Shown here piece by piece: positions 1 to 10,344 of a stretch of 10,344 nucleotides of DNA (its first letter is position 1; the number at the start of each line of letters is the position of its first letter). The translations under genes and the position numbers were made by a program. The notes below the pieces were generated by a model that ran no database searches, was not told the DNA's origin, and was given only the letters and a program-made list of their open reading frames with translations. Source of the stretch: a virus; UHGV virus genome UHGV-1717511, one strand, 5' to 3'.

Positions 1-46
1 TACACGTAAGGAGTCGTCGGCAGCGTCAGATGTGTATAAGAGACAG
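1..46. other. Synthetic library adapter: tail of P5 (tacac), an 8-nt i5 index (gtaaggag), then the Nextera read-1 adapter TCGTCGGCAGCGTC plus the 19-nt Tn5 mosaic end AGATGTGTATAAGAGACAG (28..46). Not biological.
   Basis: Seen in sequence: exact match to the Nextera transposase adapter as I recall it. The index gtaaggag matches my memory of index 505; that should be checked against the vendor list. Confidence 0.9.
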
Positions 47-107
47 ATATTTGATGGTATATTTATATAAGAAGTTGAAAGCTCATTAGAAAACAAAGGA
101 AAAACGC

Positions 108-1343
108 ATGACTACTACTGCACTGCAAAATGAAAAAAATCCTTCTGATTACCTTGTTTGCAAGTGGTGCGGAAAATCATTTCACTATTTTAAGTCCCAT
201 GTAGCCAATGGTAATTGCGAGGGCATTCCTGAGTCAGTAAAAGATGCCGATCCTGACACCGTACTGAAAATGTACACAACGCAGTTTCCAGATGAGCCAA
301 CGCTATCGAAAAAGGCACTTGATGCAATTCAAGCTAAACGTGCCGAGCAAAAAAGCGAAATGGCCAAATCATCTGGCGTGACCAATAGCCCAGGCTATAC
401 AGGCACAGTTGAGTACAAGACAGATCTGGTCGCAGCTCACGAACTGCTAAATGTAACGGTGAAAGAACTCGGAACAAAACGTGGGACGCCGCTCATGGTT
501 AGCGTCAACGTCAATACGCCGTTTCCAGAGTTCGTTCCAGAAGTGAAGAAGGGATACGTATATGGCGACTTCGAACTGATCAAAGACATTTTCATGATGC
601 TTGAACTTGGCATACCAGGCTATTTGTGGGGTCATGCAGGAACAGGCAAATCTTCATTGCCTACACAACTATGTGCTTTGCTCAATCGTCCGTTAATCCG
701 TGCCCAACATACAGCATCAATGGAAGAGGCTCATGTTACGGGACAAATTCTGGCGCGTGATGGCTCTACGTATTTCGAGCCTGGCTTGCTTGCGCTCGCA
801 ATGAAGCATGGCTGGGTTTACCTCGCGGATGAATACGACTTTGCGTTTCCACAGATTCTTGGCGTGTATCAGCCAGTGCTGGAAGGTGAAGCGTTGGTCA
901 TCAAAGAGGCGACTCCAGAATGGCGTCGCATTACTCCGCATGAACGGTTTGCTTTCATTGGCACTGGCAACACGAACGGATCTGGTGATGAAACCGGCTT
1001 GTACCAGGGTACAAACATCCAGAACGCCGCTAACTTTTCGCGTTTTGGCATCGTTTCGAATGTGAAATACATGAGCAAAGAGGCAGAGATCAGCATGTTG
1101 ATAAATGCTGGCATCGTGGATGAATACGCTGAAAAGATGGTTAAGTTTGCCGGTATCGTTCGCGATGGATACGAAGAACACCTGATCAGTCAGCCGATTG
1201 GCCCTCGTGAACTTTTGTTGTCGGCCAAGATTGGAATGATGCGAGGCGACTTTGTGACAGGTATTGAGCGTTCTTTCATTAACAAACTCCCTTCAGCTTC
1301 TGCGCAAGCGGCACGTGAAGTTGTTCAAAAAATATTTGGTTAA
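108..1343 (+). CDS. CobS-like AAA+ ATPase (MoxR/CobS family), 411 aa, with an N-terminal extension of about 170 aa
   Basis: Seen: Walker A GHAGTGKSS, Walker B VYLADEYD, and the stretch FAFIGTGNTNGSGDETGLYQGTNIQNAANFSRFGI, which parallels the CobS sensor region as I recall it. SD aagga sits 7 nt upstream of the ATG at 108. Family call is from memory of CobS motifs, not a search. Confidence 0.8.
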   Translation: MTTTALQNEKNPSDYLVCKWCGKSFHYFKSHVANGNCEGIPESVKDADPDTVLKMYTTQFPDEPTLSKKALDAIQAKRAEQKSEMAKSSGVTNSPGYTGTVEYKTDLVAAHELLNVTVKELGTKRGTPLMVSVNVNTPFPEFVPEVKKGYVYGDFELIKDIFMMLELGIPGYLWGHAGTGKSSLPTQLCALLNRPLIRAQHTASMEEAHVTGQILARDGSTYFEPGLLALAMKHGWVYLADEYDFAFPQILGVYQPVLEGEALVIKEATPEWRRITPHERFAFIGTGNTNGSGDETGLYQGTNIQNAANFSRFGIVSNVKYMSKEAEISMLINAGIVDEYAEKMVKFAGIVRDGYEEHLISQPIGPRELLLSAKIGMMRGDFVTGIERSFINKLPSASAQAAREVVQKIFG

Positions 1344-1395
1344 TCGTGCGTAAAGGATGTTTCGGCTCTCTTATCGCTGCTTCTGAAACTGGCAA

Positions 1396-1422
1396 GGCTT
1401 GTCTGGTGTGTCCAGACAAGCC
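1396..1422 (+). other. Perfect 11-bp stem / 5-nt loop hairpin (GGCTTGTCTGG tgtgt CCAGACAAGCC) in the 180-nt gap between the ATPase gene and dnaE; no T-tract follows
   Basis: Seen in sequence. It is not a canonical intrinsic terminator because no U-run follows. Function is inferred (RNA processing or regulatory structure). Confidence 0.5.
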
Positions 1423-1523
1423 CGATTGTCACCAATCAGCAAAAGAAGTTGCGATTTCGATGTATGGGAAGTTCGTAGGCTTCCCCAATGACAAAATCAA
1501 AAAAACCAGAAAGGTAAAAACAC

Positions 1524-4500
1524 ATGAAGGCTCTGATGGTTCGAACTGACTTCTCTCTTGGGGAGTCGGCTCTAAAAGCAGAAAACGCGGTGAAGATTGC
1601 CAGAGAAGCTGGCTACACCGCTGTAATTTCGGCAGATAGCATGAATATTGCGAGTGTTATTCCACTACAACGTGCCGCTGGTGACGACATGGCGGTTATT
1701 TGTGGTGTGAAACTAAACATTGTTGATGATCCCACATACGAGCACCGGGCTAAACTTGCTAAAGAGTCTATGGGATGTATGGAATCATTAGAGCGTGGGC
1801 GGAACTACTCCTTTACCGCTCTAATTAAAAATGAGCAGGGATATCGAGACATCTGCGAACTAATGACGGCGGCCAACACACGAGAACAGTTCTACTTTGT
1901 ACCGCGTCTCTCGCTCGAACAGTTGGTTTCTACATATGCCAAAGGCAACATCATCCTGCTCACTGCCGACATCGGTAGCGTGTTCCAACGCAACGATTTT
2001 GCAAAAATCATAAGCTCACTGATTACAGCGGGTGGAAAAGACAACTTCTATAGTGTGGTTTATCCGCACCCTACCCCATTCTACGACCAGATTAACGTCC
2101 GGGCGATGAAAGTCGCCAGCGCACTGAAAATAGAGCCAGTAGCGTTCTATCCCGCTTATTACGAATCGATCGACGATGCAGACATTAAAGACATTGCGCA
2201 CATGGTTACGAACAACATCAAAATCGACCAGCCGCATCGTCTGCGTATCCCCCACCAGCGAGATAACGCCGTCAATGGTCGCCGCCATCTCCTTGAGGCG
2301 CTGAAAGCCTTCTCCGTTCGCATGGATGTGCCGGTAACAGCTGCAATGGCCTCAACAACGCAGGATACCATTATCGATGCCTGCACATGGCGCTGGCATG
2401 AATTGCCACCAGCACTGCCAAAGATGGCAGACGACGAGCCTGCAACGCTGATGAAACTGGCCGTTGCTGGGCTGCGTAAACGTCTTACCACAAAAGAGTT
2501 TGGCTACACACCACCGGCTTCTGAGAACAGGGTTTATGTTGAGCGACTTAAGTACGAAATGGACACGCTTACTCGCCTGGGATTTTGTGGTTACTTCCTG
2601 ATGGTACGCGATCTGATGAATCACAGCCGTGAAACTGGCATTCCTGTCGGGCCTGGTCGTGGTTCCTCCGCTGGCTCTTTGGTGGCATGGTGCATAGGCA
2701 TAACCAACGTCGACCCTATCCGTCACGGTCTTCTGTTTGAACGTTTCATCAACCCTGAGCGTCTCGACTTGCCAGATGCGGACTTGGACTTCAGCCAGGC
2801 ACGTCGCCATGAGGTGATCGAGTATCTGAATGAACGCTACGGCGAAGATTACGTTGCAGGCATTCCGAACTTCACCTACCTGGGCGCGGCCTCTGCACTA
2901 CGTGACACCGCTCGTATTTATGGTGTGGAGTCCGCAGATATGGCGGTATCAAAAGAACTGAAGAACGTCGAGGATGATAGCCTTCCATTGGAAGAGCTGC
3001 GCGAACAACTGGCAAGCCTCGACAAATACGCGACAAAATATCCTGATGCATTCAATGCAGCCTGCAAGTTACAAAGCCTTATGCGTGGCTATGGTAGACA
3101 TGCGGCAGGGATGATCGTAGCAGGTGTTCCTCTGACAGAACGAACACCGGTTGAACGACGTGGTGACGCGCGTTGTATCGCATTTGACAAGCGTTACTGC
3201 GAGGCTATGGGCCTAATTAAGCTGGACGTACTTGGCCTGGCGACTCTCGATTTGCTCGATAGTGCAAAACGCTACATTAAAGAGAACACAGGTGAGGATA
3301 TCAATCTTGATGCCATTTCTCTTGAAGATCGCAAGGTGCTGGATGGTTTTGCTGCTGGGTACACTCAAGGTGTTTTCCAGCTTGAATCAGGCCCAATGCG
3401 CAAGCTGCTTAAAGATTTAGGTGGTGGAATTGAGCCAATGAGCTTTAAAACGGTCGTTGCTACGACTGCGCTCTTCCGGCCGGGGCCAATTCAGTCAGGC
3501 ATGTTGGATGATTATGTTTCTGTCGCCAAAGGCTTTATGACGCCGGAATCATTACACCCCGTTCTTGATGAACTTACCGCAGAAACAAATGGCGTGATTC
3601 TTTATCAGGAACAGACGATGAACGCGACTCGATTGCTTGCGGGCTTCACAATGGCTGAAGCTGACGGCGTTCGTAAAGCGATCGGCAAAAAAGACATGGA
3701 GAAAATGAAGAGCATGGGTGAGAAGTTCATCGTTCAGGCTCAAGCTGGCTGGATAGACGTTGAGCTGGAAGATGGCACTACACAGCGCATTCACCGTGCG
3801 GAACATTTTAAATGCGAAGACGGAACACTGAAAACTGTCGAAGAGGCGCTTGAACACGGCGCAAAACTACCTATAAACGCAGTACGCGTGACAGCGTCAC
3901 ACCCAGGGCTATCAGAGATGAAAGCGAAGGAGATCTGGACCGCATTCGAAAAAAATGGTGCCTACCAGTTCAACAAATCACACTCTGTTGCTTACTCCTT
4001 GATCAGTTATCAATCTATGTGGTTGAAAACTCATTATCCCGCAGAGTTTTTCGCTGCTGCTCTCACTATTCTTGGCGAAGATAAACACCAGGGGCTGGTT
4101 AAAGATGCGCTGACCTATGGTATTCGCGTATTGCCACCAGACGTTAACGTGTCATCCAACCGAATCGAGATCCGCACGCTTGAAGATGGCAGCCAGGTGC
4201 TGTATGCGCCCTTCTCTGCTGTGAAGGGGTGTTCTGAGAATGGCTGCCAAGCCATCATGAGAGCGCGAGAAAAAGTTGGCGGCAAATTCGAGTCACTGGC
4301 GCAATTCGAAGAAGCTGTCGAGAAACGTGCCTGTAATAGTCGAGTGCGCGAATCGCTGCAAAAAGTAGGGGCGTTTGCATCCATCGAGCCAGGTAGTCTG
4401 CCAGCAACTGATCCAGAGCGCCTACGCGACCAGGCTGAATTGATGGGAAACCTTGTCATAGACGCAGTTAAAGCCTCACGTCCGTTTGAGATGAACCCCA

Positions 4501-5042
4501 AACGTTCGGCTGAGATTAACGTGCTCATGACACGGATGGCGGCTGAAATGGGCTTAGGTGATGAACTAATCCGCCCCAGCATTGGTATTAAGCCGAAAAT
4601 CATGATCATTCTGGACAATGCGAACGGCAATGATGCTCGAACCGGTTACTTTATGGAGAACGGATACGACGATTTTAAGGCCAAGCTATTGACGGCTGGA
4701 GATTTACGCATGGGCGATCTCTATGTCACAGGCGTTTGCAAGAAGGTTAAAGACAAAGAAAAAGACTACACCAAAGACGAGATCGGCCAGTTCACCGACT
4801 TTATGCGTGAAGAGATCAATCTGGTGCGTCCAACCTATGTGCTGACGTGTGGCAGCCGGGCGACATCGCTCTTCAACAACAAGAGCAAACCATCCGACCT
4901 GGTTGGACGCAAAGAGTATCTGCCGGAGCTGGATGTGACTGTTTTCTACGGATTTAACCCGAATATTTTGTACTTTCGCCCAGAGGAAGGCGAAAAGCTG
5001 GAAGCAATTCTTGCAGAGGTAGCGGAGACTATTAGCAAATGA
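1524..5042 (+). CDS. dnaE: DnaE-type DNA polymerase III alpha-like catalytic subunit, 1172 aa, with an extra C-terminal domain (about aa 1023-1172) resembling a degenerate UDG fold
   Basis: Seen: GFCGYFLMVRDLMNHSRETGIPVGPGRGSSAGSLVAWCIGITNVDPIRHGLLFERFINPERLDLPDADLDF (Pol III alpha palm signature), ILYQEQTMNATRLLAGFTMAEADGVRKAIGKK and YQFNKSHSVAYSLISYQSMWLKTHYPAEFFAA. The first PHP motif lacks the canonical His pair (MVRTDFSLGES). SD aagg is 9 nt upstream of the ATG. Assignment rests on established DnaE motifs recalled from memory. Confidence 0.9.
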   Translation: MKALMVRTDFSLGESALKAENAVKIAREAGYTAVISADSMNIASVIPLQRAAGDDMAVICGVKLNIVDDPTYEHRAKLAKESMGCMESLERGRNYSFTALIKNEQGYRDICELMTAANTREQFYFVPRLSLEQLVSTYAKGNIILLTADIGSVFQRNDFAKIISSLITAGGKDNFYSVVYPHPTPFYDQINVRAMKVASALKIEPVAFYPAYYESIDDADIKDIAHMVTNNIKIDQPHRLRIPHQRDNAVNGRRHLLEALKAFSVRMDVPVTAAMASTTQDTIIDACTWRWHELPPALPKMADDEPATLMKLAVAGLRKRLTTKEFGYTPPASENRVYVERLKYEMDTLTRLGFCGYFLMVRDLMNHSRETGIPVGPGRGSSAGSLVAWCIGITNVDPIRHGLLFERFINPERLDLPDADLDFSQARRHEVIEYLNERYGEDYVAGIPNFTYLGAASALRDTARIYGVESADMAVSKELKNVEDDSLPLEELREQLASLDKYATKYPDAFNAACKLQSLMRGYGRHAAGMIVAGVPLTERTPVERRGDARCIAFDKRYCEAMGLIKLDVLGLATLDLLDSAKRYIKENTGEDINLDAISLEDRKVLDGFAAGYTQGVFQLESGPMRKLLKDLGGGIEPMSFKTVVATTALFRPGPIQSGMLDDYVSVAKGFMTPESLHPVLDELTAETNGVILYQEQTMNATRLLAGFTMAEADGVRKAIGKKDMEKMKSMGEKFIVQAQAGWIDVELEDGTTQRIHRAEHFKCEDGTLKTVEEALEHGAKLPINAVRVTASHPGLSEMKAKEIWTAFEKNGAYQFNKSHSVAYSLISYQSMWLKTHYPAEFFAAALTILGEDKHQGLVKDALTYGIRVLPPDVNVSSNRIEIRTLEDGSQVLYAPFSAVKGCSENGCQAIMRAREKVGGKFESLAQFEEAVEKRACNSRVRESLQKVGAFASIEPGSLPATDPERLRDQAELMGNLVIDAVKASRPFEMNPKRSAEINVLMTRMAAEMGLGDELIRPSIGIKPKIMIILDNANGNDARTGYFMENGYDDFKAKLLTAGDLRMGDLYVTGVCKKVKDKEKDYTKDEIGQFTDFMREEINLVRPTYVLTCGSRATSLFNNKSKPSDLVGRKEYLPELDVTVFYGFNPNILYFRPEEGEKLEAILAEVAETISK

Positions 5043-5182
5043 ACAAAGCGAACACCATGAAGGTGGCCAAAGAGCAAAGAGTTTATGGAAGTAAACAAGA
5101 TTGGCGATGTGAGACAGTACAGGCTGAAGCGCCAGACCAGAGTCACGCTATCCAATATTTTTGGTAAGAAAGTCGCCTAATG

Positions 5183-5213
5183 AAAAGCTCGTCAATTGAC
5201 GAGCTTTTCATTT
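5183..5213. terminator. Bidirectional intrinsic terminator between the convergent dnaE (+) and the antisense gene (-): palindrome AAAAGCTCGTC aatt GACGAGCTTTT followed by CATTT
   Basis: Seen: perfect palindrome with a GC-rich core and A/T arms, giving a U-run after the stem on either strand. It lies 3 nt from the - strand stop codon (TAG, + 5216..5218). Confidence 0.65.
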
Positions 5214-5215
5214 GA

Positions 5216-6199
5216 CTATCTTGAATTAGGGGCTTTCTCTATAATTATTCGATTCAGAATATGATTACGATCACTGTATGGTTCGAAATGTTCTGCAATC
5301 GAGTATGAACCGACACTACGTGCGACCACATCTTCAAAATATTCAAGGATTTTAGGTAGATACTTTTCATAATTTTGTGAACAAATCGACACTACAGGAT
5401 CGAATTCTACTAATCGACGCTTTACACGTATATGGTTATTTATTTTTTCATATTCATTCATCATAGAGTTCAAGTCTGGTACTACCCGCTCAGGGCTACA
5501 CAGGTAGGTGCTGCGGTCATACTCGTCTCCGAATTTATCAAGAGGAACACCTATCTCTAGCAACGTCTTGTTTACTCGCTTTGCAAGCTCAATTATCTCT
5601 TTATCTTCTTCTGTAAGCCACATGTCGACCCACTTTGGTTTGTCTGCCCATTCAGACAGATAATCATCCTTATTGAAAGTTACAGGAGCACATCCAGAGT
5701 CACTTCTTAATGCTTTATCCTTTATTTTAGAAATTGTTTTTTTATCTAAATGCTTCCAATAAATAGCAGGTTCGTCTAATTCATTATCATCGTGTAGGCA
5801 TATCAAAACAATTACCACAGGAAAATCACAACTTCCCCAATAGGTTATATTTTTATAAGGTATTTGTACGCTTAACCTTCTCTTCATTTTGCGTGAGGTG
5901 GTTTTTATCTGAACGCCGATAAAAAAACCTGTCGAAAGATTATTTTCATATATTTCAACCTGAGCATCCAATCCCATATCAATATCTAGCAATCGACAAG
6001 GCCATCTGAAATAACGAGAAATCCAATAGGCAAACAAGTACTCTCCAGCGTGTCCATCCGCACTGGTTTTCGGATATGTCATACCTTCAGTTTTATTCTT
6101 TTCTGCCGCTGGCTTTACAGACTTAGCTTTTGGGGGGAGGGCTGTTTTTTTAGTCGGCACTGACTTTGTTGCTTTGACTTGTTTGTTAGCCTTATCCAT
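5216..6199 (-). CDS. AT-rich antisense gene: predicted PD-(D/E)xK-type nuclease-like protein (DUF4365-like core) with an N-terminal Lys/Ala/Pro-rich tail, about 327 aa. A TTG at 6214 would add 5 aa; the ATG at 6199 is more likely.
   Basis: Seen: long ORF; tail KQVKATKSVPTKKTALPPKAKSVKPAAEKNK; core GHAGEYLFAYWISRYFRWPCRLLDIDMGLDAQVEIYENNLSTGFFIGVQIKTT, i.e. a D-x-D ... E ... Q-x-K arrangement. Hand counts on several 60-nt lines give roughly 23-43% GC here against roughly 47-60% in neighbouring genes. Family resemblance is from memory, not a search. No strong SD; AGGAGG is 20 nt upstream of the TTG. Confidence 0.65.
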   Translation of the reverse strand: MDKANKQVKATKSVPTKKTALPPKAKSVKPAAEKNKTEGMTYPKTSADGHAGEYLFAYWISRYFRWPCRLLDIDMGLDAQVEIYENNLSTGFFIGVQIKTTSRKMKRRLSVQIPYKNITYWGSCDFPVVIVLICLHDDNELDEPAIYWKHLDKKTISKIKDKALRSDSGCAPVTFNKDDYLSEWADKPKWVDMWLTEEDKEIIELAKRVNKTLLEIGVPLDKFGDEYDRSTYLCSPERVVPDLNSMMNEYEKINNHIRVKRRLVEFDPVVSICSQNYEKYLPKILEYFEDVVARSVGSYSIAEHFEPYSDRNHILNRIIIEKAPNSR

Positions 6200-6300
6200 T
6201 GGTTTTATTCTCAATTTGCTTTGCTCGGTGTGCCTCCTGATTCTGCACCTTAGCGCCGATACTGTCTACCGCCAATCATGACAGTAAAGCTCTATTTGTT

Positions 6301-6309
6301 TGATATAAT
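6301..6309 (+). promoter_or_regulatory. Putative sigma70-type extended -10 element TGATATAAT, about 35 nt upstream of the next + strand gene; weak -35-like ATGACA at 6278..6283 with a 20-nt spacer
   Basis: Seen: exact TGnTATAAT. It is placed where + strand transcription would need to restart after the bidirectional terminator and the antisense gene. Promoter activity is inferred. Confidence 0.4.
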
Positions 6310-6342
6310 CAGATACACGAAAGTAAGTTTGAGCATATCAAT

Positions 6343-6774
6343 ATGAACACCGATATTTACGAGAAAATAATGTCTGATCTCGAGTTTGACAGAGACAATC
6401 TGGAAGACGTCTGGCGTAAACAACCTCGCCTGTTGATGGAGTATGGTTCAAAGCTCGCCCATGCAGAAAGAAGTGTCGCAGAGGCAAAACTTAACCTTGA
6501 AGCTGTTGAAGCAAAGCTATACGACACAGAGCGTAAAAACTTGAGTATGAACGGCATTAAGTTTAACGAATCTGTACTAGACGCTAAGGTTAAAACAAAC
6601 CCACAGTATCTGTCTAAACGGCAGAAGTTGGATGAAGCACGGCACATCGCAGACATATACAAACATGCTGTCGCCGCCTTTTCGCATCGCCGAGACATGA
6701 TCGTTCAGGCGTCGAAGATGGCTATCGTTGAATTAGAGCGATTAGGCTCTGAACGCTTTATTACTCCCCGTTGA
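6343..6774 (+). CDS. Small helical protein, possibly a UvsY-like recombination mediator, 143 aa (alternative start ATG at 6370)
   Basis: Seen: ORF with weak RBS. Size and segments such as DAKVKTNPQYLSKRQKL and HAVAAFSHRRDMI resemble T4 UvsY as I recall it. Context supports it: upstream of a gp32-like SSB and a RecA-family recombinase. Function is inference. Confidence 0.45.
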   Translation: MNTDIYEKIMSDLEFDRDNLEDVWRKQPRLLMEYGSKLAHAERSVAEAKLNLEAVEAKLYDTERKNLSMNGIKFNESVLDAKVKTNPQYLSKRQKLDEARHIADIYKHAVAAFSHRRDMIVQASKMAIVELERLGSERFITPR

Positions 6775-6778
6775 TTTT

Positions 6779-6809
6779 TGATAGATAATAAGTAAGTACT
6801 GATCTATCA
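6779..6809 (+). promoter_or_regulatory. AT-rich inverted repeat TGATAGAT-N15-ATCTATCA in the leader upstream of the SSB gene; candidate operator or RNA structure
   Basis: Seen: 8-bp perfect inverted repeat arms. A regulatory role is inferred only. Confidence 0.3.
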
Positions 6810-6891
6810 TTTAACAGCTCGAAAGAGCCACGAATGAACGAAAGCCCAACGCGCATAGCGCCATCGGCCAAATCACAACAAGGAGAAACAC

Positions 6892-7920
6892 ATGTCTAAG
6901 ACATTACTTGATTTGCTTAACAAAACTCGTGAAGACATTGCCGCCAAACGTGGCAACAACGTTGATCTGACTCGTTTAAAAGACGGCGTCAACTATATCC
7001 GCATCTTCCCGAATAAAGACGACCCAAACGGTAAGTTCTTCCAGACTTTCGGTATGCACTACGTTAAGTATCAGAACGAGGAAGGTAAAGAAGCAACCAA
7101 CGCTTATATTTGTGAGCAACATACTCACGGTCGCGCTTGTCAGCTATGCGAAATGGTGATGGAAGGTCGCGCTCGTCACAAGGGTAACAAAGCAATGGAA
7201 GAACGCATCGGTCAAATGCGTGCCACTCCTCGCTACCTGGTCAACGGCATTCTTTCTGCTCGTGAGGATTTCGCAGATGCTGAGAAATGCCAGTTAATCG
7301 AGCTGCCGTCTACTGTATTCGATGATATCTGCAAAGCAATCACCGAAGACATCGCTGATGATATCGGCAATCCACTGAGCAAAGAGGAAGGCTACGCATT
7401 CCTGATTAAACGTACTGGCTCTGGTCGCGATACCAAATATGACGTCTCGCCTAAGCGTAAAGTCTACAAAGGCGATATCGAAGATAAATTCTGGAACACC
7501 CAGCATGATCTGATCGCATACGCAAATCAGGCTGATGAAACTCGTCTTCTGTCGACAGTTCGCACTATGGGTCGTCTGATTGGCATCGCTGCACCAACTG
7601 CCGCAGCATCTGCACCAGCAATTTCCTCAACCGCGAAAACATCGGCTGCGGCACTACCTGGATTTGGCTCTGTCACTGGTCATACAGAAGGAGCGACGGC
7701 TGTAGCAACCGCGCACACACCGGCTTCTGAACCAACCAGTCTGGTTGATGAAGAAATCCTCCGTGCCGTTGAAACTGAATTTAAACCAGAGGCAAGTTCC
7801 GCTGCCGTTGCCGTATCAGTCAAAGAGTCTGAAGCAGTCGCAGCGACATCTGTAGCAACCGCATCTGCGACGGAAGATGAAGGTCTGGATGACCTACTGA
7901 GAGAGCTGGACTCTCTGTAA
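6892..7920 (+). CDS. T4 gp32-like single-stranded DNA-binding protein, 342 aa, with zinc-binding His/Cys cluster, long Ala/Ser/Thr-rich linker and acidic C-terminal tail
   Basis: Seen: NYIRIFPNKDDP ... YICEQHTHGRACQLCE (H/C/C/C-type cluster as in gp32 subdomain I), and acidic end EDEGLDDLLRELDSL. SD aggag is 6 nt upstream of the ATG. Family call from memory of T4 gp32. Confidence 0.8.
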   Translation: MSKTLLDLLNKTREDIAAKRGNNVDLTRLKDGVNYIRIFPNKDDPNGKFFQTFGMHYVKYQNEEGKEATNAYICEQHTHGRACQLCEMVMEGRARHKGNKAMEERIGQMRATPRYLVNGILSAREDFADAEKCQLIELPSTVFDDICKAITEDIADDIGNPLSKEEGYAFLIKRTGSGRDTKYDVSPKRKVYKGDIEDKFWNTQHDLIAYANQADETRLLSTVRTMGRLIGIAAPTAAASAPAISSTAKTSAAALPGFGSVTGHTEGATAVATAHTPASEPTSLVDEEILRAVETEFKPEASSAAVAVSVKESEAVAATSVATASATEDEGLDDLLRELDSL

Positions 7921-7938
7921 TCCCATTACGTGACCAGT

Positions 7939-7965
7939 AAGGCGTCTACGGACGCCTTACTTTTT
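7939..7965 (+). terminator. Intrinsic terminator after the SSB gene: AAGGCGTC tacg GACGCCTT followed by acTTTTT
   Basis: Seen: 8-bp GC-rich stem, 4-nt loop, T-run. Confidence 0.7.
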
Positions 7966-7980
7966 GGAAGGAATGTACCG

Positions 7981-8925
7981 GTGAATTATCTCTTCGTAGA
8001 TGGCAATAGCCTGGGTTATTACCACCAACAATCTGACAAATTGCACAACGGCGAAATGGAAGTACAGGCTGCTTTCGGCTTTGTTAAGAACGTCCGTCGT
8101 TATGCCTCCATCCTCCATGCCCGACCTATGATTCTTTGGGATGGATTTAGTGACAAGCGTCGCGACTTTTACCCGGACTACAAAGCAAATCGCGACGACG
8201 ATCCTGATATGAAAAAGATGAAGGAAGGCTTTGCTATCCAGAAGCCATACATCCTCAAAATGATGACCGCGCTTGGTGTTAACCAAATCATTGCAAAAGA
8301 TGCAGAAGCGGATGATCTGGCCGGGCTGCTGGTATCCCGCATGGCACCGCAGCCAACCGTTGAACACATCTATCTGTTAACAGGCGATAGCGACTGGCTT
8401 CAGTTAGTTCGCGAAAACGTAAGCTGGGTAAGCCTGCGTGAAGACGCCAAAAACAAGCAGGTTAATTTTGAGCAATTTGCGGAGCTGACAGGATTCGCCA
8501 CGCCTCGCGCATTTTTGGAAGCAAAAGCATTACAAGGCGATAACTCGGACAACATTAGCGGTGTTGGTGGCATTGGTGCTGGCGGTGCGAAAGAGCTGCT
8601 GCATGAATGGGGAAGTGTCGCAACGATGGTACGCGGCATCAACGACGGCTCAATCGTGGTTAATAAAGGGCGTCATAAGACCGCCTTCAACAAACTAGCG
8701 AAGAATGCCTTCAACGAGAAAACAGGCTGTCGAATGCTCGAAGCGTTCAAGAGAAACATCACGCTAATGAACCTGATTGAGACGAAGTTTCCGCCTACCG
8801 AAATCGAAACAATCAAAGGCAATCGTGACGTGAAAGCATTCGAGCAACTGTGCTACGAGCTGAATTTCCGTTCGTTCCTTGAAGACCTTGAAGTGTTTGT
8901 TCTTCCATTCGAAAGGTATTGCTAA
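7981..8925 (+). CDS. 5'-3' exonuclease / flap endonuclease (FEN, RNase H-like, Pol I 5'-exo family), 314 aa, GTG start
   Basis: Seen: LFVDGNSLGYY, YKANR, EADDLAGLL, GDSDWLQLV and the H3TH-like LQGDNSDNISGVGGIGAGGAKELL. GGAAGGA lies 8 nt upstream of the GTG at 7981. The ORF-track start at 7930 would put the terminator hairpin inside the CDS, so I prefer 7981. Confidence 0.85.
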   Translation: MNYLFVDGNSLGYYHQQSDKLHNGEMEVQAAFGFVKNVRRYASILHARPMILWDGFSDKRRDFYPDYKANRDDDPDMKKMKEGFAIQKPYILKMMTALGVNQIIAKDAEADDLAGLLVSRMAPQPTVEHIYLLTGDSDWLQLVRENVSWVSLREDAKNKQVNFEQFAELTGFATPRAFLEAKALQGDNSDNISGVGGIGAGGAKELLHEWGSVATMVRGINDGSIVVNKGRHKTAFNKLAKNAFNEKTGCRMLEAFKRNITLMNLIETKFPPTEIETIKGNRDVKAFEQLCYELNFRSFLEDLEVFVLPFERYC

Positions 8926-9191
8926 TGCTTAAATCGATTATCAATGGCGCTACAACCACCCCTGCCCAACTGGCAAAAGAGATTGTCTTTTATCACGGTG
9001 AGTACGCTGTCATCGCACTGCCGTCAATTCTAGGCGCTGCCGGAATGAAAGCGACAGATCGCGAGTTTGGATTAGTCAGCGAGCAGGTCGTAAAAATCCT
9101 CGCTCGTGTATCCAGACTCCTTAACCACGATGCGATTGTATTCGATGAATCCGCCGCTTTAAAACGAATCAACGAAACAAAAGGAGCCTGA
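8925..9191 (+). CDS. Hypothetical protein, 88 aa; its ATG overlaps the FEN stop (TAATG), suggesting translational coupling
   Basis: Seen: ORF with aaagg 8 nt upstream of the ATG at 8925; the ORF track begins 6 nt earlier at a TTG. No recognisable motif. Confidence 0.55.
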   Translation: MLKSIINGATTTPAQLAKEIVFYHGEYAVIALPSILGAAGMKATDREFGLVSEQVVKILARVSRLLNHDAIVFDESAALKRINETKGA

Positions 9192-9193
9192 TC

Positions 9194-10267
9194 ATGGCAA
9201 AAGGAAAATCCGCACTGGCACTTGCTCTGAAAAAGAAAATCGGTAGCAACGACGAAATTCAGAAAGTAACTCATTGGATTGATACAGGCTTTCCACCGTT
9301 AAACAAAGCTATTTCTGGTCGTTACGATGGCGGCTTCCCATGTGGTCGTATCGTCGAAGTATTCGGTCCTCCAAGTGCAGGGAAAACGTTCCTTGCAACA
9401 GCAGCGATGATCTCCGCTCAAAAACAAGATGGTCTGGCGGTATTCCTCGATCATGAAAACAGTTTTGACGTTGGCCTGGCTGTAGCCAATGGCCTGAACG
9501 CAGATGAGGATGACGGTCAGTGGGTATACAAGCAGCCTGACACCTTCGAAGACTCTGTAGAGTTGATCGGCACAATACTTAAATTGGTACGTGATGAAGA
9601 GCTTATCCCTGAATCAGCACCTATCTGTATCGTGGCTGACTCACTTGCGTCTATGGTTCCGAACTCCAAAGCCGAGAAGTTCGAAAAGATGGCTGAAGGC
9701 ACTGCCAAAGACAAAGATCAGCTAAACATGAACGACAATACGGCACTGGCTCGTGCGACAAGTGCGAACTTCCCTACTCTGGCTTTGTGGGCACGCAAAT
9801 ACAACGCCTGCATCATCTTCTTGAATCAGGTTCGCACAAAAATCGGTGTAATGTTTGGCGACCCTACTACGTCGCCAGGTGGAGATTCACCGAAGTTCTA
9901 CGCTTCTGTACGTATCCGTCTTGGTGCATCGGTGATGAAGGATGGTAAAGAGAAGATCGGCCAGGACGTAGGCGCAGAATGCATCAAAAACAAAGTTGCA
10001 CCACCGTATGGCAAATGCACCTGGAAATTCTACTTCGATCCTACTCGTGGCCTCGACGTTATCGAATCGCTCGTCGAGTACATGCTGGAAGAAGGATACC
10101 TGCCAAAGAACGCCAGCGGGCGAGTTGAAATTGGTGACAAGAAATACACCAAATCGCAGATCGTCGAGATGTATCGGGAGAAGCCACTGGCTGAAATCAT
10201 TGCGGCTTTGCAGGCAATCGACGACCGAAGAGCAAAAGACAACCCCACCGAGTCAGTAGAAGAGTAA
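9194..10267 (+). CDS. recA: RecA-family recombinase (phage-encoded, RecA/UvsX-like), 357 aa
   Basis: Seen: Walker A GPPSAGKTF, QPDTFEDSVEL, and IIFLNQVRTKIGVMFGDPTTSPGGDSPKFYASVRIRLG, which is close to the bacterial RecA core [38 protein letters not shown]. SD aaggag is 7 nt upstream of the ATG. Confidence 0.9.
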   Translation: MAKGKSALALALKKKIGSNDEIQKVTHWIDTGFPPLNKAISGRYDGGFPCGRIVEVFGPPSAGKTFLATAAMISAQKQDGLAVFLDHENSFDVGLAVANGLNADEDDGQWVYKQPDTFEDSVELIGTILKLVRDEELIPESAPICIVADSLASMVPNSKAEKFEKMAEGTAKDKDQLNMNDNTALARATSANFPTLALWARKYNACIIFLNQVRTKIGVMFGDPTTSPGGDSPKFYASVRIRLGASVMKDGKEKIGQDVGAECIKNKVAPPYGKCTWKFYFDPTRGLDVIESLVEYMLEEGYLPKNASGRVEIGDKKYTKSQIVEMYREKPLAEIIAALQAIDDRRAKDNPTESVEE

Positions 10268-10271
10268 ACAC

Positions 10272-10296
10272 AAGGCGTCCACAGGACGCCTTTTTT
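10272..10296 (+). terminator. Intrinsic terminator after the recombinase gene: AAGGCGTCC aca GGACGCCTT TTTT
   Basis: Seen: 9-bp stem, 3-nt loop, T-run. The stem sequence is nearly identical to the terminator at 7939..7965. Confidence 0.7.
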
Positions 10297-10299
10297 ATC

Positions 10300-10344
10300 C
10301 TGTCTCTTATACACATCTCCGAGCCCACGAGACGCTACGCTATC
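10300..10344. other. Synthetic library adapter: reverse-complement Tn5 mosaic end CTGTCTCTTATACACATCT, then CCGAGCCCACGAGAC, an 8-nt index (gctacgct) and atc (start of the P7 tail). Not biological.
   Basis: Seen: exact match to the Nextera read-2 side adapter as recalled. The index looks like index 709 from memory and should be checked. Confidence 0.9.

What the first reader, a model, noticed from the sequence alone, without database searches (positions are those of the whole stretch)
1..46. Window begins inside an untrimmed Nextera adapter (P5 tail, index, read-1 adapter, Tn5 mosaic end)
The first 46 nt are synthetic, so the contig edge is a library artefact and not a genome terminus or repeat. 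Anything inferred from the extreme ends (terminal repeats, promoters reaching into 1..46) would be wrong. Both ends carrying adapter in the orientation of a complete library molecule suggests reads were assembled without adapter trimming, or that the contig ends coincide with fragment ends.
Basis: partly seen in the sequence, partly recalled or inferred. Interest (0 to 1): 0.4.

Follow-up and report, generated by a model that had tools for sequence, protein, structure and literature searches.

The report
Untrimmed Nextera adapters at contig ends
The first 46 and last 45 bases of this contig are synthetic Illumina Nextera library adapters left in by the assembly, and the 10,253 bases between them are an ordinary internal piece of a well-known E. 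coli phage-plasmid, so the contig ends mean nothing biologically.

Summary
Observation confirmed; interpretation supported. Window 1-46 is exactly the last 46 nt of the Nextera i5 library arm: P5 tail TACAC (1-5), index 505 GTAAGGAG (6-13), Tn5ME-A oligo TCGTCGGCAGCGTC+AGATGTGTATAAGAGACAG (14-46). Window 10300-10344 is the mirror i7 arm: mosaic end, read-2 adapter, index N709 GCTACGCT, and ATC of P7. All pieces match published oligo and index tables. Neither end occurs in 5,426 complete E. coli genomes. The insert 47-10299 differs at 4 bases from an internal stretch (60625-70877) of a circular 110-kb SSU5-like phage-plasmid. Eleven independent records read straight through both junctions, so these are not genome termini. 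At least 120 IMG/VR contigs carry the same adapter, nearly always at a contig end with the mosaic end inward, most often with 46-47 nt retained. Likely cause (inferred): untrimmed read-through reads extended the contig where coverage dropped at AT-rich intergenic stretches. Trim to 47-10299. There is no biological novelty.

The parts
1..5 (+). Last 5 nt (TACAC) of the Illumina P5 flow-cell sequence
   Evidence: Matches the end of AATGATACGGCGACCACCGAGATCTACAC (primer layout in PMC12067302). Too short to be significant on its own.
6..13 (+). i5 index 505 (GTAAGGAG)
   Evidence: listed as 505/S505 in PMC12067302 and PMC7845766.
14..46 (+). Tn5ME-A oligo: read-1 adapter TCGTCGGCAGCGTC (14-27) plus 19-nt Tn5 mosaic end AGATGTGTATAAGAGACAG (28-46)
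   Evidence: Exact 33/33 match and the only one in the window; 0 of 200 shuffles gave a match. Sequence published in PMC4248319.
47..10299 (+). Genuine insert: internal fragment of an E. coli SSU5-like phage-plasmid. Genes: AAA_5 ATPase 108-1343, DnaE 1524-5042, DUF4365 5216-6214 (minus strand), UvsY-like 143 aa 6343-6774, gp32-like SSB 6892-7920, 5'-3' exonuclease 7930-8925, 88-aa ORF, RecA 9194-10267, terminator 10272-10298.
   Evidence: 4 mismatches and no indels against NZ_AP022089.1 60625-70877. Pfam labels come from identical genes on other contigs. Terminator.
10300..10333 (-). Tn5ME-B oligo on the minus strand: mosaic end (10300-10318) plus read-2 adapter GTCTCGTGGGCTCGG (10319-10333)
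   Evidence: Exact 34/34 match; 0 of 200 shuffles. Sequence in PMC4248319.
10334..10341 (+). i7 index N709 (GCTACGCT, in sample-sheet orientation on the + strand)
   Evidence: index tables.
10342..10344 (+). First 3 nt (ATC) of the complement of the P7 flow-cell sequence
   Evidence: Too short to be significant on its own.

Best explanation
Both contig ends are untrimmed Illumina Nextera dual-index adapters (index pair 505/709). They were added by the assembler and are not part of any genome. Shown: the adapter identity, the exact junctions, and the fact that the natural sequence continues past both junctions. Inferred mechanism, step 1: the sample contained an E. coli SSU5-like phage-plasmid and was tagmented with Tn5. 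Step 2: some fragments were shorter than the read length, so reads ran through the insert into the opposite adapter arm, and reads were not trimmed for Nextera adapters. Step 3: usable coverage broke in two AT-rich intergenic stretches, which Nextera XT is known to under-sample. The outermost fragments therefore ended at 47 and 10299, and their read-through was the only available extension. Step 4: the de Bruijn assembler followed the adapter until its k-mers stopped being unique. About 45-46 nt is what k=55 minus roughly 9-10 insert-specific bases would give. The correct sequence is 47-10299, a fragment of a roughly 110-kb circular element.
For: Exact matches to published oligos and index lists. 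Neither adapter end has any match in 5,426 complete E. coli genomes. The insert differs at 4 of 10,253 bases from an internal part of circular plasmid NZ_AP022089.1, and similarity stops exactly at the two junctions. Ten more contigs from NCBI and ENA continue through the junctions with conserved flanks: cobT upstream, a 66-aa gene and an SPFH/Band_7 gene downstream. The artefact is common. At least 120 IMG/VR contigs carry the same adapter, and 108 of 111 occurrences lie within 40 nt of a true contig end with the mosaic end inward. 28 GenBank phage records also carry it. Retained adapter length in IMG/VR peaks at 46-47 nt. It is nearly equal at the two ends of one contig (52/52, 44/44, 46/46, 39/35, 62/69; here 46/45), which points to an assembler limit rather than random read-through length. 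Both junctions sit at GC troughs of the reference: the 100 nt centred on the left junction are 25% GC (0.1 percentile), and the 100 nt just outside the right junction are 32% GC (3.5 percentile). Adapter-capped IMG/VR ends are on average 2.4 GC points below their own contig (Wilcoxon p=7e-4). The Nextera XT low-GC coverage bias is documented in PMC6796507 and PMC9330563, the latter noting E. coli is affected in certain regions.
Against: No reads are available, so the coverage gap, the kit (XT versus Flex) and the assembler k are all inferred. One comparable GC trough inside the contig (reference locus 9669-9724, about window 5715-5770) was assembled through. The last 100 nt inside the right end are not AT-rich (51% GC). 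The contig itself was not found in the viral, metagenome or genome collections, so its sample and pipeline are unknown.
Confidence: 0.9

Rival explanations
1. The adapters are untrimmed as above, but the contig broke because of assembly-graph branching rather than a coverage gap. For example, two or more related SSU5-like elements in one sample could diverge in the intergenic regions, and the adapter tip survived as the chosen extension.
For: The intergenic region around the left junction is polymorphic among close relatives: 4-5 differences in window 47-160 in L123, L125, L127 and L131. 251 of 5,426 complete E. coli genomes carry such an element, so mixtures are plausible in metagenomes.
Against: A branch would normally end a unitig at the last shared base without adding adapter. 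The right junction flank is almost invariant among the 11 records. No repeat longer than 16 nt touches either junction.
Confidence: 0.15
2. The window is one real, complete library molecule. A 10.25-kb tagmented fragment carrying A and B arms would have been read by a long-read or synthetic-long-read method and then partly end-trimmed.
For: The A arm at one end and the B arm at the other, each with one index, is the layout of a complete amplifiable molecule. The roughly 10-kb size resembles long-fragment protocols (own knowledge).
Against: P5 and P7 are cut to 5 and 3 nt instead of 29 and 24. The same 44-49 nt truncation is typical of short-read contig ends in IMG/VR. A/B is expected by chance in half of doubly capped contigs, and A/A also occurs (L018). 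There are no indels in 10,253 nt against the reference, so this is not a raw long read.
Confidence: 0.04
3. Positions 47 and 10299 are physical ends of a discrete natural DNA molecule, such as a phage terminus, a packaged fragment or a mini-element.
For: Both junctions fall in intergenic DNA, the right one immediately after a terminator.
Against: The region is internal and colinear in circular plasmids and in phage records with different start points: PhiR41_1 90826-101169, Cyrano 45287-57431, SSU5 45486-55684. The insert has no terminal direct repeat of 5 nt or more. The fragment has no replication initiator; RepB lies about 3 kb downstream in the reference. Tn5 inserts into duplex DNA and does not tag pre-existing ends (own knowledge).
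Confidence: 0.01
4. The 19-bp inverted repeats (28-46 and 10300-10318) are ends of a natural Tn5/IS50-type transposon.
For: There is a perfect 19-bp inverted repeat near both ends.
Against: The 19-mer is the engineered hyperactive mosaic end, which replaced the wild-type outside and inside ends in vitro (PMC4248319). It is fused to Illumina primer, index and flow-cell sequences. The DNA between the repeats is phage-plasmid sequence with no transposase gene. Related records lack the repeats at these sites.
Confidence: 0.003

Closest known systems
Illumina Nextera / Nextera XT dual-index adapter contamination of assembled contigs
   Same: Exact Tn5ME-A and Tn5ME-B oligos, catalogue indexes 505 and 709, P5 and P7 stubs, and mosaic ends facing the insert at the very contig ends. 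At least 120 IMG/VR contigs and 28 GenBank phage records show the same adapter.
   Different: Nothing material. Both ends of this contig are capped, and only 5 of the IMG/VR loci fetched showed that.
SSU5-like phage-plasmids of Enterobacteriaceae (SSU5, pHCM2, Escherichia phages Cyrano and PhiR41_1; Pfeifer et al. 2021, PMC7969092)
   Same: The insert is 99.96% identical to plasmid pWP4-S18-ESBL-07_2 and about 83% identical to SSU5 over 84% of its length. It has the same gene order: AAA ATPase, DnaE, UvsY-like, gp32-like SSB, exonuclease, RecA.
   Different: It is only a 10-kb internal fragment. It carries the DUF4365 variant of the variable slot and the intein-free RecA allele.
Natural Tn5/IS50 inverted ends
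   Same: A 19-bp inverted repeat recognised by Tn5 transposase.
   Different: The sequence is the synthetic mosaic end, not the wild-type outside or inside end. There is no transposase gene, and it is attached to Illumina primer sequences.

Membership tests
Illumina Nextera dual-index library adapter | 33-nt Tn5ME-A oligo TCGTCGGCAGCGTCAGATGTGTATAAGAGACAG | tested here: met
   Exact at 14-46; 0 of 200 shuffles. Published sequence.
Illumina Nextera dual-index library adapter | 34-nt Tn5ME-B oligo GTCTCGTGGGCTCGGAGATGTGTATAAGAGACAG on the opposite strand at the other end | tested here: met
   Exact at 10300-10333 on the minus strand. Published sequence.
Illumina Nextera dual-index library adapter | 8-nt catalogue index directly outside each adapter | tested here: met
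   GTAAGGAG = 505 and GCTACGCT = 709.
Illumina Nextera dual-index library adapter | P5 and P7 flow-cell sequences outside the indexes | tested here: inconclusive
   Only 5 nt (TACAC) and 3 nt (ATC) are present. Both agree with P5 and P7, but they are too short to count on their own.
Illumina Nextera dual-index library adapter | Not part of the natural sequence: homologous genomes lack it and diverge exactly at the mosaic end | tested here: met
   Eleven records continue past both junctions. There is no match in 5,426 complete E. coli genomes.
Phage genome terminus or terminal repeat | Related genomes end, or carry a repeat, at the same position | tested here: not met
   The region is internal in circular plasmids and in phage records. 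There is no terminal direct repeat of 5 nt or more and no repeat longer than 16 nt at the junctions.
Natural Tn5/IS50 element | Wild-type outside or inside end sequences flanking a transposase gene | tested here: not met
   The 19-mer equals the engineered mosaic end. No transposase is among the genes between the repeats.
SSU5-like phage-plasmid (for the insert) | Nucleotide identity and synteny with SSU5-group replication and recombination genes | tested here: met
   810 PLSDB plasmids and 12 phage records match.

The most novel reading that the evidence does not exclude
The 10,253-bp insert is a genuine discrete DNA molecule, such as an excised or packaged replication-recombination module of an SSU5-like phage-plasmid. 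Its ends at 47 and 10299 would then have been captured by tagmentation close to the physical termini.
Probability: 0.01. Interest if true: 0.3.

Novelty: not a real feature. Interest (0 to 1): 0.03.

Why it matters
The value is purely quality control. Positions 1-46 and 10300-10344 should be trimmed. The contig must not be treated as a complete genome, a linear terminus or an element bounded by inverted repeats. The two mosaic ends form a perfect but artefactual 19-bp inverted repeat. In contigs capped by the same arm at both ends, such as IMG/VR L018, the whole 44-nt adapter forms a false inverted terminal repeat that completeness tools could misread. Any promoter or ORF call that reaches into the adapters is spurious, for example the minus-strand ORFs 10030-10314 and 10197-10328. 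No real gene is affected: the first starts at 108 and the last ends at 10267.

Tried and rejected
1. I looked for this contig by its adapter-insert junction in viral, metagenome and genome contig collections and found no match. The sample and pipeline remain unknown.
2. I looked up the 143-aa protein to find the source contig. It occurs in 543 blocks, and only long contigs were returned. That was still useful, because it showed the flanks continue.
3. I looked for a repeat at the junctions that could break an assembly. Only a 16-nt terminator copy ends at the right junction (D17, locus 14238-14253 and 15377-15392), which is too short for any usual k.
4. I tested for a terminal direct repeat or circular overlap of the insert and found none of 5 nt or more.
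5. I scanned for promoter-like sites in 1-400. None lies in or next to the adapter.
6. I considered a natural Tn5 end, a genome terminus and a complete long library molecule. All were rejected or ranked low, as set out under the rival explanations.

Full report
**Observation**

The window starts TACAC GTAAGGAG TCGTCGGCAGCGTC AGATGTGTATAAGAGACAG and then ATATTTGATGG.... It ends ...GGACGCCTTTTTTATC followed by CTGTCTCTTATACACATCT CCGAGCCCACGAGAC GCTACGCT ATC.

- A script comparison shows that 1-46 equals the last 46 nt of P5 + index 505 + read-1 adapter.
- The same script shows that 10300-10344 equals the first 45 nt of the reverse complement of P7 + index 709 + read-2 adapter.
- The 33-nt and 34-nt transposon oligos each match once, exactly, with no chance matches in 200 shuffles.
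- No adapter piece of 10 nt or more occurs anywhere inside the insert.

I did not rely on memory for the vendor sequences. Picelli et al. 2014 print Tn5ME-A, Tn5ME-B and Tn5MErev with Illumina catalogue numbers (PMC4248319). Two other papers print the index-primer layout and the tables 505 = GTAAGGAG and 709 = GCTACGCT (PMC12067302 and PMC7845766). The two adapter strings occur together in 3,293 papers.

**What lies between the adapters**

The insert 47-10299 (10,253 nt, 47% GC) matches 810 PLSDB plasmids, 12 phage records and plasmids of 251 of 5,426 complete E. coli genomes. It never matches a chromosome.

- The best match is NZ_AP022089.1, a circular 110,167-bp plasmid, at positions 60625-70877. 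There are 4 substitutions and no indels.
- Relatives include Salmonella phage SSU5 and Escherichia phages Cyrano and PhiR41_1. This is the SSU5 group of phage-plasmids (Pfeifer et al. 2021, PMC7969092).
- The genes are an AAA_5 ATPase, DnaE, a DUF4365 protein on the minus strand, a UvsY-like 143-aa protein, a gp32-like SSB, a 5'-3' exonuclease, an 88-aa ORF and RecA.
- RecA is followed by an intrinsic terminator at 10272-10298.

**Are the junctions genome ends?**

They are not. In the reference, similarity begins at window 46/47 and stops at 10299|10300. On both sides the reference continues with unrelated, natural sequence: the end of cobT upstream, and a 66-aa gene plus an SPFH gene downstream.

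Ten further contigs of 70-650 kb from NCBI assemblies and ENA metagenomes carry the same gene order. Nine of the ten read through the left junction and all ten through the right, with conserved flanks (the left anchor was not found in L128). The region lies at different internal coordinates in differently permuted phage records.

The insert has no terminal direct repeat. No repeat longer than 16 nt touches a junction. Neither adapter end has any match in 28 Gb of complete E. coli genomes.

**How common is this artefact?**

- 108 of 111 occurrences lie within 40 nt of a locus end, and those ends are true contig ends. The mosaic end always faces inward.
- The indexes seen are catalogue i5 indexes. 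GTAAGGAG appears 12 times.
- 28 GenBank or RefSeq phage records carry the adapter too, some of them internally.

**Mechanism (inferred)**

Retained adapter length in IMG/VR peaks at 46-47 nt, and 50 of 108 ends fall in 44-49 nt. The two ends of a doubly capped contig retain nearly equal lengths: 52/52, 44/44, 46/46, 39/35 and 62/69, with 46/45 here. That argues for an assembler-set limit rather than random read-through lengths.

In a de Bruijn graph, a junction path stays unique only while each k-mer holds about log4(N) insert bases. With k=55 and 10^4 to 10^6 junctions, this gives 44-48 nt. This is my own reasoning and was not tested.

For adapter to be appended at all, the genomic continuation must be missing or very thin. 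Both junctions sit at GC troughs of the reference:

- The 100 nt centred on the left junction are 25% GC, the 0.1 percentile.
- The 100 nt outside the right junction are 32% GC, the 3.5 percentile.
- Only six troughs of 28% GC or less exist in 18 kb.

Across IMG/VR, adapter-capped ends are modestly AT-shifted, by 2.4 GC points (p=7e-4). Nextera XT under-samples low-GC regions, and in E. coli this affects certain regions (PMC6796507 and PMC9330563).

There are caveats. One similar trough inside the contig was assembled through. No reads were available. The contig was not found in the three searchable collections.

**Rivals**

- Graph branching in a mixed population is possible for the left end, where relatives are polymorphic. 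It does not by itself explain how adapter came to be appended.
- A complete 10-kb library molecule fits the A/B layout. However, that layout is a 50:50 outcome, and A/A occurs (L018). P5 and P7 are cut to 5 and 3 nt in the way typical of short-read contigs.
- Physical termini and natural Tn5 ends are excluded by the colinear references and by the synthetic nature of the mosaic end.

**Verdict**

Trim to 47-10299 and treat the contig as an incomplete fragment of a roughly 110-kb SSU5-like phage-plasmid.

Noticed in passing
window 9194-10267 (empty site at 9385|9386); L132 9401-11740; L133 10279-12618: The window's RecA (357 aa) is an intein-free allele. In plasmid NZ_CP029421.1 and phage Cyrano the same gene is 779 aa. 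It carries a 422-aa insert in the P-loop (GPPSAGK|T) that starts with C and ends with HN, followed by T. The flanking parts are 357/357 identical to the window's RecA. RefSeq names the whole ORF 'LAGLIDADG family homing endonuclease'.
   Followed up: partly
window c. 5043-6342 (minus-strand slot between dnaE and the UvsY-like gene): This is a variable cargo slot. It holds a DUF4365 protein here (5216-6214), a different 196-aa protein in NZ_CP029421.1, and a HicA/HicB toxin-antitoxin pair in phage Cyrano. It accounts for the 87-89% coverage seen in otherwise 97-99% identical relatives.
   Followed up: partly
phage records NC_049386.1/LR595870.1 1293-1329; MK373775.1 149749-149782; MK170160.1 22692-22734; NC_049395.1 6-48: Deposited GenBank and RefSeq phage genomes contain the same Nextera read-1 adapter. 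In some it lies internally and under annotated CDS (terminase large subunit, long tail fibre), which suggests chimeric joins or mis-assemblies in those records.
   Followed up: no
L018 (IMGVR_UViG_3300045988_179125) 1-44 and 14891-14934; L004 2154-2186: L018 carries the same adapter arm and index (CACTATCCTCT + read-1 adapter) at both ends. This makes a perfect 44-nt artefactual inverted terminal repeat that could be mistaken for a sign of genome completeness. L004 has the adapter in the middle of a 4,734-nt contig, which is probably a chimeric join.
   Followed up: no
window 6773 (G; T in NZ_AP022089.1): This substitution gives a TGA stop seven codons earlier than in the best-matching plasmid (143 versus 150 aa). 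The 143-aa form is itself widespread, occurring in 543 index blocks, so it is a natural allele and not an error.
   Followed up: yes
L001 17003-17538 (outside the window, about 2.7 kb downstream in the reference): There is an array of at least 11 copies of a 19-nt iteron-like repeat (ACCGCTGACAGCATA core) next to the RepB initiator gene. This is presumably the plasmid origin of the phage-plasmid.
   Followed up: no
window 10284-10299 and reference L001 15377-15392: The 16-nt terminator tail GGACGCCTTTTTTATC recurs 1,139 nt downstream in the reference, and the copy in the window ends exactly at the insert's last base. It is too short to break an assembly, so this is probably coincidence.
   Followed up: partly
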